64,000 nucleotides of DNA, from the NCBI GenBank assembly GCA_009914755.4, contig CP068257.2, positions 13,664,001 to 13,728,000 on the forward strand. The letters are read 5' to 3'. Positions 5,837-6,456 of this stretch are shown here, piece by piece (position 1 is the first letter of the stretch; every line of letters begins with the position of its first letter). The notes beneath the pieces are model-generated. The model was not told the DNA's origin. It worked only from the letters and a program-made list of their open reading frames with translations, and did not search any database. The DNA comes from the human T2T-CHM13v2.0 reference genome, Homo sapiens. Made by a program: the position numbers and the translations under genes.

Positions 5837-6129
5837 TTTTTTTTTTTGAGACAGAGTCTCACTCTGTCGCCCAGGCTAGAGTGTCGTGGCACAATCTCGG
5901 CTCACTGCAACCTCTGCCTCCCGGGTTCATGCCATTCCACTGCCTCAGCCTCCAGAGTAGCTGGGATTACAGGTGCCTGCCACCACGCCTGGCTAATTTT
6001 TTTGTATTTTTAGTAGAGACAGGGTTTCTCAGTGTTAGCTAGGATGGTCTTGATCTCTTGACCTCATGATCTGCCCGTCTCGGCCTCCCAAAGTGCTGGG
6101 ATTACAGGCGTGAGCCACCACGCCCGGCC
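5837..6129 (-). mobile_element. Alu SINE, full length, minus orientation
   Basis: Poly-T at 5837-5857 then 'gagacagagtctcactctgtcgcccaggctagagtg...ggattacaggcgtgagccaccacgcccggcc', the reverse complement of the Alu consensus. Confidence 0.95.
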
Positions 6130-6165
6130 CTTTTCATTCTTTTCTAATCAGTTAAAAATGTAGTT

Positions 6166-6456
6166 GGTCACAGTGGCTTACACCTGTAATCCCAGCACTT
6201 TGGGAGGCTGAGGTGGGTGGATCATGAAGTCAGGAGTTCGAGACCAGCCTGGCCAACATGGTGAAATCCTGTCTCTACTAAAAATATAAAAATTAGCTGG
6301 GTGTGGTGATGCACAACTGTAATCCCAGCTACTCAGGAGGCTGAGGCAGGAGAATTGCTTTAACCCGGGAGAAGGAGGTTGCAGTGAGCTGAGATCACGC
6401 CACTGCACTCCATCCTGGGTGACAGAGCAAGACTCCGTCTCAAAAAAAAAAAAAAA
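6166..6456 (+). mobile_element. Alu SINE, plus orientation
   Basis: 'ggtcacagtggcttacacctgtaatcccagcactttgggaggctgaggtgggtggatcatgaagtcaggagttcgagaccagcctggccaacatggtgaaa...gagcaagactccgtctc' plus A15 tail. Confidence 0.95.

What the first reader, a model, noticed from the sequence alone, without database searches (positions are those of the whole stretch)
5837..6456. Closely spaced inverted Alu pair (tail-to-head, about 36-bp spacer)
A minus-strand Alu (5837-6129) and a plus-strand Alu (6166-6456) face each other across a 36-bp spacer. The arrangement is a near-perfect inverted repeat of roughly 290 bp. If transcribed, such pairs fold into long dsRNA. They are the main substrate class for ADAR A-to-I editing and for MDA5 sensing when unedited. 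At DNA level, inverted Alus this close are known hotspots for replication-fork stalling and deletions. A third Alu lies 1 kb downstream (7483).
Basis: partly seen in the sequence, partly recalled or inferred. Interest (0 to 1): 0.5.

Follow-up and report, generated by a model that had tools for sequence, protein, structure and literature searches.

The report
Ordinary head-to-head inverted Alu pair
Two old Alu repeats inserted independently, facing each other head-to-head across 33 bp; the pair is real but only 82% matched, belongs to a common, well-described class in primate genomes, and shows no sign of special function or fragility.

Summary
A minus-strand Alu (poly-T 5827-5847, body 5848-6129) and a plus-strand Alu (6163-6441, A-tail to 6456) face each other, and a third plus-strand Alu lies at 7483-7776. 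Two details are wrong. The pair is head-to-head, not "tail-to-head". It is 82% identical, not "near-perfect": the longest exact complementary run is 26 nt, and only 12 of the 20 positions nearest the centre match. The arms belong to different subfamilies (AluY-like and AluS-like). The 33-bp spacer is made of their two 5' target-site duplications plus 8 nt, so these were two separate insertions. As RNA the pair would fold into a hairpin of about 260 bp (-453 kcal/mol). In a 2-kb context, however, the first Alu pairs better with the third Alu (-856 vs -824 kcal/mol). The ADAR-substrate reading is sound in general but depends on Pol II read-through, which I could not test. No coding exon was detected within 1-16 kb, which argues against a 3'UTR location. 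The DNA-fragility claim does not fit this pair: the spacer is too long, the arms are too diverged, and the centre is mismatched. Head-to-head pairs with 24-36 bp spacers are in fact over-represented in the human genome. Verdict: known, ordinary, low interest.

The parts
5812..5826 (-). Probable 3'-side target-site duplication copy of A1 (ATTCTTCTTCTTTCC). It is imperfect and pyrimidine-rich.
   Evidence: It matches 6130-6144 at 10/15 positions (7/9 for the last nine). The low complexity makes the assignment uncertain.
5827..5847 (-). A-tail of A1, seen as 21 T on the plus strand
5848..6129 (-). A1: full-length Alu body on the minus strand, with its head at 6129. Closest to AluY (89.4%).
   Evidence: two 7SL Alu-domain matches, 5846-5993 and 6014-6128; non-CpG divergence 4.8%.
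6130..6145 (-). Spacer part 1: 5'-side target-site duplication copy of A1 (CTTTTCATTCTTTTCT)
6146..6153 (.). Spacer part 2: 8 nt of original host sequence (AATCAGTT) between the two insertion targets
   Evidence: Inference; the length is uncertain by a few nt because A1's duplication is imperfect.
6154..6162 (+). Spacer part 3: 5'-side target-site duplication copy of A2 (AAAAATGTA)
   Evidence: perfect 9/9 match with 6452-6460
6163..6441 (+). A2: full-length Alu body on the plus strand with a degenerate 5' end. Closest to AluS (88.8-89.7%).
   Evidence: 7SL Alu-domain matches 6163-6277 and 6296-6443; non-CpG divergence 4.8%, only 4 CpG left.
6442..6456 (+). A-tail of A2 (15 A). The last 5 A overlap the 3' target-site duplication copy, 6452-6460.
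6468..6471 (+). First TTTT downstream of A2, a possible Pol III terminator 12 nt after the tail. A1 has no TTTT until about 200 nt past its tail.
7466..7785 (+). A3: third full-length Alu (body 7483-7764, A-tail to 7776) with 17-nt target-site duplications at 7466-7482 and 7769-7785. It is the competing pairing partner for A1.
   Evidence: Partner competition.
6103..6188 (.). Tip of the inverted repeat (A1 head + spacer + A2 head). On both strands it resembles the mir-1972 precursor model, which is itself a head-to-head Alu junction.
   Evidence: 37.2 and 32.1 bits against a gathering score of 90. DNA fold of 6080-6212: -41.8 kcal/mol.

Best explanation
This is a pair of old, independently retrotransposed Alu elements with no demonstrated function of its own. 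An AluY-like copy on the minus strand and an AluS-like copy on the plus strand each inserted by L1-mediated target-primed reverse transcription. Their target sites were only about 8 nt apart, on opposite strands of an AT-rich host sequence. That geometry left them head-to-head, with a 33-bp spacer made of their two 5' target-site duplications.

**What is shown:**
- the identity, orientation and boundaries of the three Alus;
- 82% arm identity;
- separate target-site duplications;
- strong predicted hairpin formation;
- competition from the third Alu.

**What is inferred:**
- If, and only if, a Pol II transcript reads through both arms, the RNA folds co-transcriptionally into an imperfect duplex of about 260 bp. 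ADARs would then deaminate it at a low level at many adenosines, as happens for thousands of similar pairs.
- Each Alu's own Pol III transcription would run outward from the centre and include only one arm, so it could not make the hairpin.
- The pair most likely sits in an intron or intergenic DNA, so it would be invisible to cytoplasmic MDA5.
- At the DNA level it is expected to be stable.
For: - **Alu identity and dimeric 7SL-derived structure:**
- **Different subfamilies and similar age:** non-CpG divergence is 4.8% for each, and 35-42% of CpG positions are changed.
- **Independent insertions:** A2 has a perfect 9-nt duplication and A3 a 17-nt one, and the spacer decomposes into the two 5' copies plus 8 nt.
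- **Hairpin potential:** -453.1 kcal/mol (z = -44) on the plus strand and -430.9 kcal/mol (z = -30) on the minus strand. There are 260 inter-arm pairs in 23 helices, the longest 45 bp, with 21 G:U pairs. About 120 adenosines are paired on either strand.
- **Expected editing:** the editability formula of PMC4066801 gives about 3.0% for d = 33 bp, against a mean of 1.34% (my arithmetic).
- **Known common class:** head-to-head full-length pairs with 24-36 bp spacers (PMC3215922).
- **Gene-poor setting:** 37% GC, 5.3% Alu, no CpG island and no Rfam gathering-level hit. Non-repeat ORFs from 1-16.3 kb have no protein homolog. The PDB scan found only an L1 ORF2 remnant. Nothing stands out as exon-like by codon usage.
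- **Expected DNA stability:** thresholds quoted in PMC10164571, compared with a 33-bp spacer, 82% identity and 12/20 central matches.
Against: - Transcription status and gene context were not determined, because no annotated vertebrate genome or RNA-seq data were available.
- The exon search only covered ORFs of at least 50-52 aa, so short exons, non-coding exons and long 3'UTRs would be missed.
- A1's target-site duplication is imperfect.
- In the 2-kb thermodynamic fold, A1 pairs with A3 rather than A2 (free MFE -855.6 vs -823.7 kcal/mol with A1:A2 enforced; cofold -485 vs -454). The A1:A2 hairpin is therefore favoured only by proximity and kinetics, which I did not model.
- Divergent inverted repeats can still cause rearrangements when they lie in long single-stranded DNA (PMC10164571).
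Confidence: 0.85

Rival explanations
1. The pair lies in a 3'UTR or other exon of a cytoplasmic mRNA or lncRNA. It would then be one of the small set of short-loop inverted-Alu dsRNAs that ADAR1 p150 must edit to avoid MDA5 activation.
For: The loop is very short (33 nt). Small loop size was the one feature that distinguished immunogenic from non-immunogenic Alu pairs (PMC12695637). The predicted duplex is long and stable.
Against: [quoted passage not shown] No protein-coding ORF match was found within 1-16.3 kb. The window is AT-rich, repeat-rich and has no CpG island. A3 competes for A1.
Confidence: 0.04
2. The pair is a DNA-level fragile quasi-palindrome. It would extrude a hairpin or cruciform, stall replication forks, and be a hotspot for deletions or inversions.
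For: Closely spaced inverted Alus are fragile in yeast, and pairs with spacers of 24 bp or less are strongly depleted in humans. Single-stranded DNA of the central 133 nt folds at -41.8 kcal/mol. Divergent repeats become rearrangement-prone in long ssDNA.
Against: The spacer is 33 bp; going from 12 to 20 bp already lowers recombination about 40-fold. Identity is 82%; 86% lowers rearrangements about 58-fold and 75% about 1087-fold. Eight of the 20 positions nearest the centre are mismatched, and a single central mismatch already matters. Head-to-head pairs with 24-36 bp spacers are over-represented in the genome. Both elements carry about 10-11% total divergence, so the arrangement has persisted for tens of millions of years (inference).
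Confidence: 0.05
3. The hairpin tip (A1 head, spacer, A2 head) is a miRNA precursor of the mir-1972 type.
For: Both strands of 6103-6188 align end to end with the mir-1972 model. That model's consensus is itself antisense Alu head + loop of about 24 nt + sense Alu head.
Against: It scores 37.2 and 32.1 bits against a gathering score of 90. The stem nearest the loop is poorly paired. Unrelated plant MIR models score the same, so any long hairpin produces such hits.
Confidence: 0.02
4. The two arms arose from one inverted duplication of a single Alu-containing segment, not from two insertions.
For: Only their adjacency and their similar overall divergence from consensus.
Against: The arms best match different subfamilies. 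Their mutual identity (82%) is no higher than either arm's identity to the unlinked A3 (84.4% and 82.3%). A2 has its own perfect target-site duplication on both sides. Homology stops at the Alu ends.
Confidence: 0.01

Closest known systems
[quoted passage not shown] 2011, Mob DNA, PMC3215922; first noted by Stenger et al. 2001)
   Same: This falls inside the only spacer range where inverted pairs outnumber direct pairs.
   Different: Nothing distinguishes it. It is one of several thousand such pairs: 1.6% of 560,485 adjacent pairs is about 9,000, roughly half of them inverted (my arithmetic).
Inverted-repeat Alu dsRNA substrates of ADAR1/ADAR2 (Bazak et al. 2014, PMC4066801; Sun et al. 2025, PMC12695637)
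   Same: Two oppositely oriented Alus lie well within the ~800-bp decay distance. The predicted imperfect duplex is about 260 bp with about 120 paired adenosines.
   Different: Transcription and editing are untested here. A same-strand competitor (A3) lies 1.3 kb away. The spacing is close enough that the slight drop in editing reported for very close neighbours may apply.
Fragile Alu quasi-palindromes of the yeast assays (Lobachev et al. 2000, as quoted in PMC10164571 and PMC3215922)
   Same: Two inverted Alu-length arms with a short spacer.
   Different: The fragile constructs have 12-bp spacers and 94-100% identity. This pair has a 33-bp spacer, 82% identity and a mismatched centre, which puts it near the background end of the published dose-response.
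mir-1972 precursor family (Rfam RF04167)
   Same: The architecture is the same: antisense Alu head, short loop, sense Alu head.
   Different: It scores 37 bits against a gathering score of 90, and the loop is 30 nt against 24 in the model. It is not a member.

Membership tests
Alu SINE | Dimer of two 7SL-derived monomers, about 280 bp in total | tested here: met
   each of A1, A2 and A3 gives two Metazoa_SRP Alu-domain matches (33.8-67.3 bits, below the gathering score of 70, as expected for Alus).
Alu SINE | 3' A-tail and flanking target-site duplications from L1-mediated insertion | tested here: met
   A-tails are 21, 15 and 12 nt. A2 has a perfect 9-nt duplication and A3 a 16/17 match over 17 nt. 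A1's is only imperfect, 10/15.
Alu SINE | Internal Pol III A and B boxes intact (source-competent copy) | tested here: inconclusive
   By eye on the output. In A1 the A box (GTGGCTCACGCC) is intact, but the B-box region reads GATCAAGACC instead of GATCGAGACC. In A2 the A box is mutated (GTGGCTTACACC) and the B box (GTTCGAGACC) is intact. Only A2 has a nearby TTTT terminator.
Head-to-head Alu pair class, 24-36 bp spacer (Cook 2011) | [quoted passage not shown] | tested here: met
   arms of 282 and 279 nt plus tails, heads at 6129 and 6163, spacer 33 bp.
Inverted-Alu ADAR substrate | Oppositely oriented Alu partner within about 2-3.5 kb, able to form a long duplex | tested here: met
   260 inter-arm base pairs, -453 and -431 kcal/mol.
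Inverted-Alu ADAR substrate | Both arms on one Pol II transcript, with clustered A-to-G mismatches in RNA-seq | not testable with these tools
   No annotated vertebrate genome, RNA-seq or REDIportal access. Indirect attempts found no gene.
Immunogenic (MDA5-activating) dsRNA, sensu Sun et al. 2025 | Located in mature mRNA (exon or UTR), not in an intron | not testable with these tools
   Indirect evidence against: no protein match for ORFs within 1-16.3 kb, and an AT-rich window without a CpG island.
Immunogenic (MDA5-activating) dsRNA, sensu Sun et al. 2025 | Small loop between the arms | tested here: met
   33-nt loop. Criterion.
Fragile Alu quasi-palindrome (yeast model) | Spacer of about 12-20 bp or less | tested here: not met
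   The spacer is 33 bp. Threshold.
Fragile Alu quasi-palindrome (yeast model) | Arm identity of about 86-100%, with perfect pairing next to the centre | tested here: not met
   82.1% overall. 12/20 and 21/30 of the centre-proximal positions match.
mir-1972 (RF04167) | Covariance-model score at or above the gathering threshold (90 bits) | tested here: not met
   37.2 bits (plus strand) and 32.1 bits (minus strand).

The most novel reading that the evidence does not exclude
The spacer anatomy of this pair may illustrate a simple, general origin for the unexplained genome-wide excess of head-to-head Alu pairs at 24-36 bp. Here the spacer is the A1 duplication ending in a T-run, then 8 nt, then the A2 duplication starting with an A-run. 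Two L1-endonuclease nicks on opposite strands of a T-run/A-run site (or a palindromic TTTT/AAAA site) must produce a head-to-head pair whose spacer equals the sum of two target-site duplications, about 30 bp. Reuse of such a site in the same orientation instead gives direct pairs spaced by at most one duplication. [quoted passage not shown] I saw no sign in the text I read that they considered this twin-nick explanation. It may be published elsewhere, and one locus cannot establish it.
Probability: 0.3. Interest if true: 0.3.

Novelty: already known. Interest (0 to 1): 0.1.

Why it matters
It matters little by itself. Inverted Alu pairs are the textbook source of endogenous dsRNA and A-to-I editing, and this one has no feature that sets it apart from thousands of others. 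It would gain some interest only if it lay in an expressed 3'UTR, because its short loop is the feature linked to MDA5 stimulation. The useful results are corrective:
- Orientation and identity must be measured before invoking fragility. This pair falls in a spacer and orientation class that is enriched, not depleted, in the genome.
- The nearest inverted partner is not necessarily the thermodynamically preferred one.

Tried and rejected
1. **Exact-protein look-ups.** Three locus-specific ORFs (two crossing an Alu/unique-sequence junction) were looked up in public assemblies to find the chromosomal record or independent copies. None was on record.
2. **Spacer scans.** I scanned genome, viral and metagenome collections for the 20-nt spacer core, hoping for human or primate contamination carrying this locus. 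The only hits were one bacterial MAG contig and one metagenome contig with unrelated flanks, about what chance predicts.
3. **PDB scan.** The six-frame ORFs of 1-12.7 kb matched only an L1 ORF2 C-terminal remnant.
4. **Large protein-database searches.** The unique ORFs at 6.5-7.4 kb and all non-repeat ORFs of at least 52 aa from 1-16.3 kb gave no hits.
5. **Codon-usage ranking.** All ORF segments were ranked for exon-likeness. The best score was 17 bits, and the top candidates lie in repeat-like sequence.
6. **GC-rich blocks.** The blocks at 17.4-19.8 kb and 25.7-27.1 kb were considered as promoters or CpG islands. I rejected that because CpG observed/expected is 0.03-0.14 and the sequence is LTR-like.
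7. **Older host repeat.** I searched the window for another copy of the reconstructed empty site, to show that the flanks belong to one older repeat. None was found.
8. **Primary source.** Lobachev et al. 2000 (PMC313988) is not held, so its thresholds are cited through PMC10164571 and PMC3215922.
9. **Rest of the window.** I did not run ORF chunks beyond 16.3 kb against the databases. The expected yield was low, and the candidate cap would probably have been saturated.

Full report
**What is there.** The window is primate-type genomic DNA: 37% GC, 12 full-length Alus (5.3% of bases), and no Rfam match at gathering level.

At the reported site there are three Alus:

| Element | Strand | Body | Tail |
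|---|---|---|---|
| A1 | minus | 5848-6129 | 21 T on the plus strand, 5827-5847 |
| A2 | plus | 6163-6441 | 15 A, 6442-6456 |
| A3 | plus | 7483-7764 | A-tail to 7776 |

Rfam in E-value mode finds two sub-threshold matches to the 7SL RNA Alu domain in each element, one per monomer. A2's left monomer starts exactly at 6163.

**Two descriptive errors.**
- An inverted pair can only be head-to-head or tail-to-tail. Here both A-tails point outward and the 5' ends face each other, so the pair is head-to-head as defined by Cook et al..
- The repeat is not near-perfect. The arms align with 243 matches, 44 mismatches and 9 gap columns, which is 82.1%. The longest exact complementary run is 26 nt. The positions nearest the centre of symmetry are the worst, matching at 12/20 and 21/30.
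- The A1-A2 identity is no higher than either arm's identity to the unlinked A3 (84.4% and 82.3%). It is simply the usual similarity between two Alu copies.

**Origin.** A1 is closest to AluY (89.4%) and A2 to AluS (88.8-89.7%). Each shows 4.8% non-CpG divergence from its best consensus, and 35-42% of CpG positions are changed. From general knowledge of primate substitution rates, that implies insertions tens of millions of years old.

- A2 is flanked by a perfect 9-nt duplication, AAAAATGTA, at 6154-6162 and 6452-6460.
- A3 is flanked by a 17-nt duplication.
- A1's duplication is imperfect and pyrimidine-rich, at 5812-5826 and 6130-6145.

The 33-bp spacer therefore reads A1 duplication + AATCAGTT + A2 duplication. 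These were two separate insertions into targets about 8 nt apart on opposite strands, not an inverted duplication.

**RNA-level behaviour (conditional).** Folded alone, the 635-nt segment forms one long hairpin:
- -453.1 kcal/mol on the plus strand (z = -44) and -430.9 kcal/mol on the minus strand (z = -30);
- 260 inter-arm pairs in 23 helices, the longest 45 bp, with 21 G:U pairs;
- about 120 paired adenosines on either strand.

The neighbour is not the best partner. In a 2-kb fold, the minimum-energy structure pairs A1 with A3 (266 bp). Forcing A1:A2 costs about 32 kcal/mol (-823.7 vs -855.6). In isolation, the A1+A3 duplex is -485 kcal/mol against -454 for A1+A2. A1:A2 would prevail only through proximity and co-transcriptional kinetics. 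That is plausible: short loops restrict the structural ensemble, and same-strand neighbours are known competitors. I did not model it.

Because the pair is head-to-head, each Alu's own Pol III transcript would run outward and contain only one arm. A hairpin therefore needs Pol II read-through (inference).

The published fit E = 2.9·exp(-d/800) + 0.25 gives about 3.0% average editability for d = 33 bp, against a mean of 1.34%. A slight decrease is reported for very close pairs (my arithmetic).

**Would it matter immunologically?** Sun et al. found that MDA5-relevant dsRNAs are a small subset. Intronic Alus are almost excluded from it, and it differs from other Alu pairs only by a smaller loop. 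Barak et al. show that inverted duplicates are depleted from mRNAs. This pair has the short loop, so location decides the question.

I could not map the window. Indirect tests found no gene:
- no exact ORF on record;
- only an L1 ORF2 remnant against PDB sequences;
- no homolog in the large protein database for unique ORFs at 6.5-7.4 kb, or for all non-repeat ORFs of at least 52 aa in 1-16.3 kb;
- no exon-like codon-usage signal;
- no CpG island; the GC-rich blocks are CpG-depleted and LTR-like.

This lowers the chance of a 3'UTR location but does not exclude it.

**DNA-level claim.** The statement that inverted Alus "this close" are hotspots holds for a different parameter range. As quoted by Ait Saada et al.:
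- widening the spacer from 12 to 20 bp reduces Alu-repeat-induced recombination about 40-fold, and from 12 to 100 bp about 300-fold;
- lowering identity from 100% to 94%, 86% or 75% lowers rearrangement rates about 15-, 58- and 1087-fold;
- even one mismatch near the centre matters.

This pair has a 33-bp spacer, 82% identity and 8 mismatches in the central 20 positions.

Genome statistics point the same way. Inverted pairs are strongly depleted at spacers of 24 bp or less (inverted:direct ratio about 0.07). Head-to-head pairs at 24-36 bp form the only class in which inverted pairs outnumber direct ones. That bin holds 1.6% of 560,485 adjacent full-length pairs. The arrangement is therefore common and evidently tolerated. 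The residual risk applies in long single-stranded DNA, where divergent repeats do interact.

**Side observations.** The hairpin tip (6103-6188) aligns on both strands with the Rfam mir-1972 model. That model's consensus is itself an antisense Alu head, a loop, and a sense Alu head. The score is 37 bits against a gathering score of 90, and unrelated plant hairpin models score the same, so this shows shared architecture and not membership.

The spacer anatomy also suggests why head-to-head pairs peak near 30 bp. Nicks on opposite strands of a T-run/A-run site give a spacer equal to the sum of two target-site duplications. Cook et al. left this excess unexplained. This is an inference from one locus.

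**Verdict.** The feature is real and its description has been corrected. The generic RNA-level interpretation is reasonable but untested here. The DNA-fragility interpretation is not supported for this pair. The pair is already known in kind, and interest is low.

Noticed in passing
window 6103-6188 (also 6091-6201): The tip of the inverted pair gives sub-threshold, both-strand matches to the miRNA precursor models mir-1972 (37.2 and 32.1 bits, gathering 90) and mir-619. The mir-1972 consensus is itself a head-to-head Alu junction hairpin with a loop of about 24 nt. Unrelated plant MIR models score similarly.
   Followed up: yes
window 5800-7800: In a 2-kb thermodynamic fold, the minus-strand Alu pairs with the third Alu 1.35 kb away and not with its 33-bp neighbour. 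The difference is about 32 kcal/mol.
   Followed up: yes
window 6130-6162: The spacer decomposes into A1's duplication (ending in a T-run), 8 nt, and A2's duplication (starting with an A-run). This suggests a twin-nick origin that could explain the known genome-wide excess of head-to-head Alu pairs at 24-36 bp.
   Followed up: partly
window 5540-5826 and 6461-6620: The sequences on either side of the pair look like one older, AT-rich interspersed repeat into which both Alus inserted (for example 'acaaaaacaggcagtgagctagctttggcctatgggccatagtttt' on the right). The window holds no second copy, so I could not name it.
   Followed up: partly
window 17400-19800 and 25700-27100: GC-rich (52-64%) but strongly CpG-depleted blocks (observed/expected 0.03-0.14) with long ORFs in several frames. 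The first ends in LTR-like sequence and contains short tandem 'gcagagaggagctaccctctctgctgag' units at about 18770-19000. These are probably old ERV/LTR elements, not promoters.
   Followed up: partly
window ~8220-8540 (-), 12930-13610 (-), 24200-24780 (-), 38300-41250 (+): L1 remnants. An ORF2 C-terminus is confirmed against PDB L1 ORF2p at about 8.2-8.5 kb. ORF2-like and ORF1-like translations elsewhere were recognised by eye.
   Followed up: partly
window 41411-42833: A cluster of three same-orientation (plus-strand) AluS-like elements within 1.4 kb. The nearest oppositely oriented Alu is about 4 kb away, at 37217-37500.
   Followed up: no
window ~3560-3870, ~8400-8900, ~32000-32300: ORF translations with the motifs typical of MaLR (THE1/MST-type) LTRs, such as '...PAMWNCESIKPL...'. 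These were recognised from memory only.
   Followed up: no
window 29295-29575: The youngest-looking Alu in the window: 93.6% identity to the AluY consensus, plus strand.
   Followed up: no
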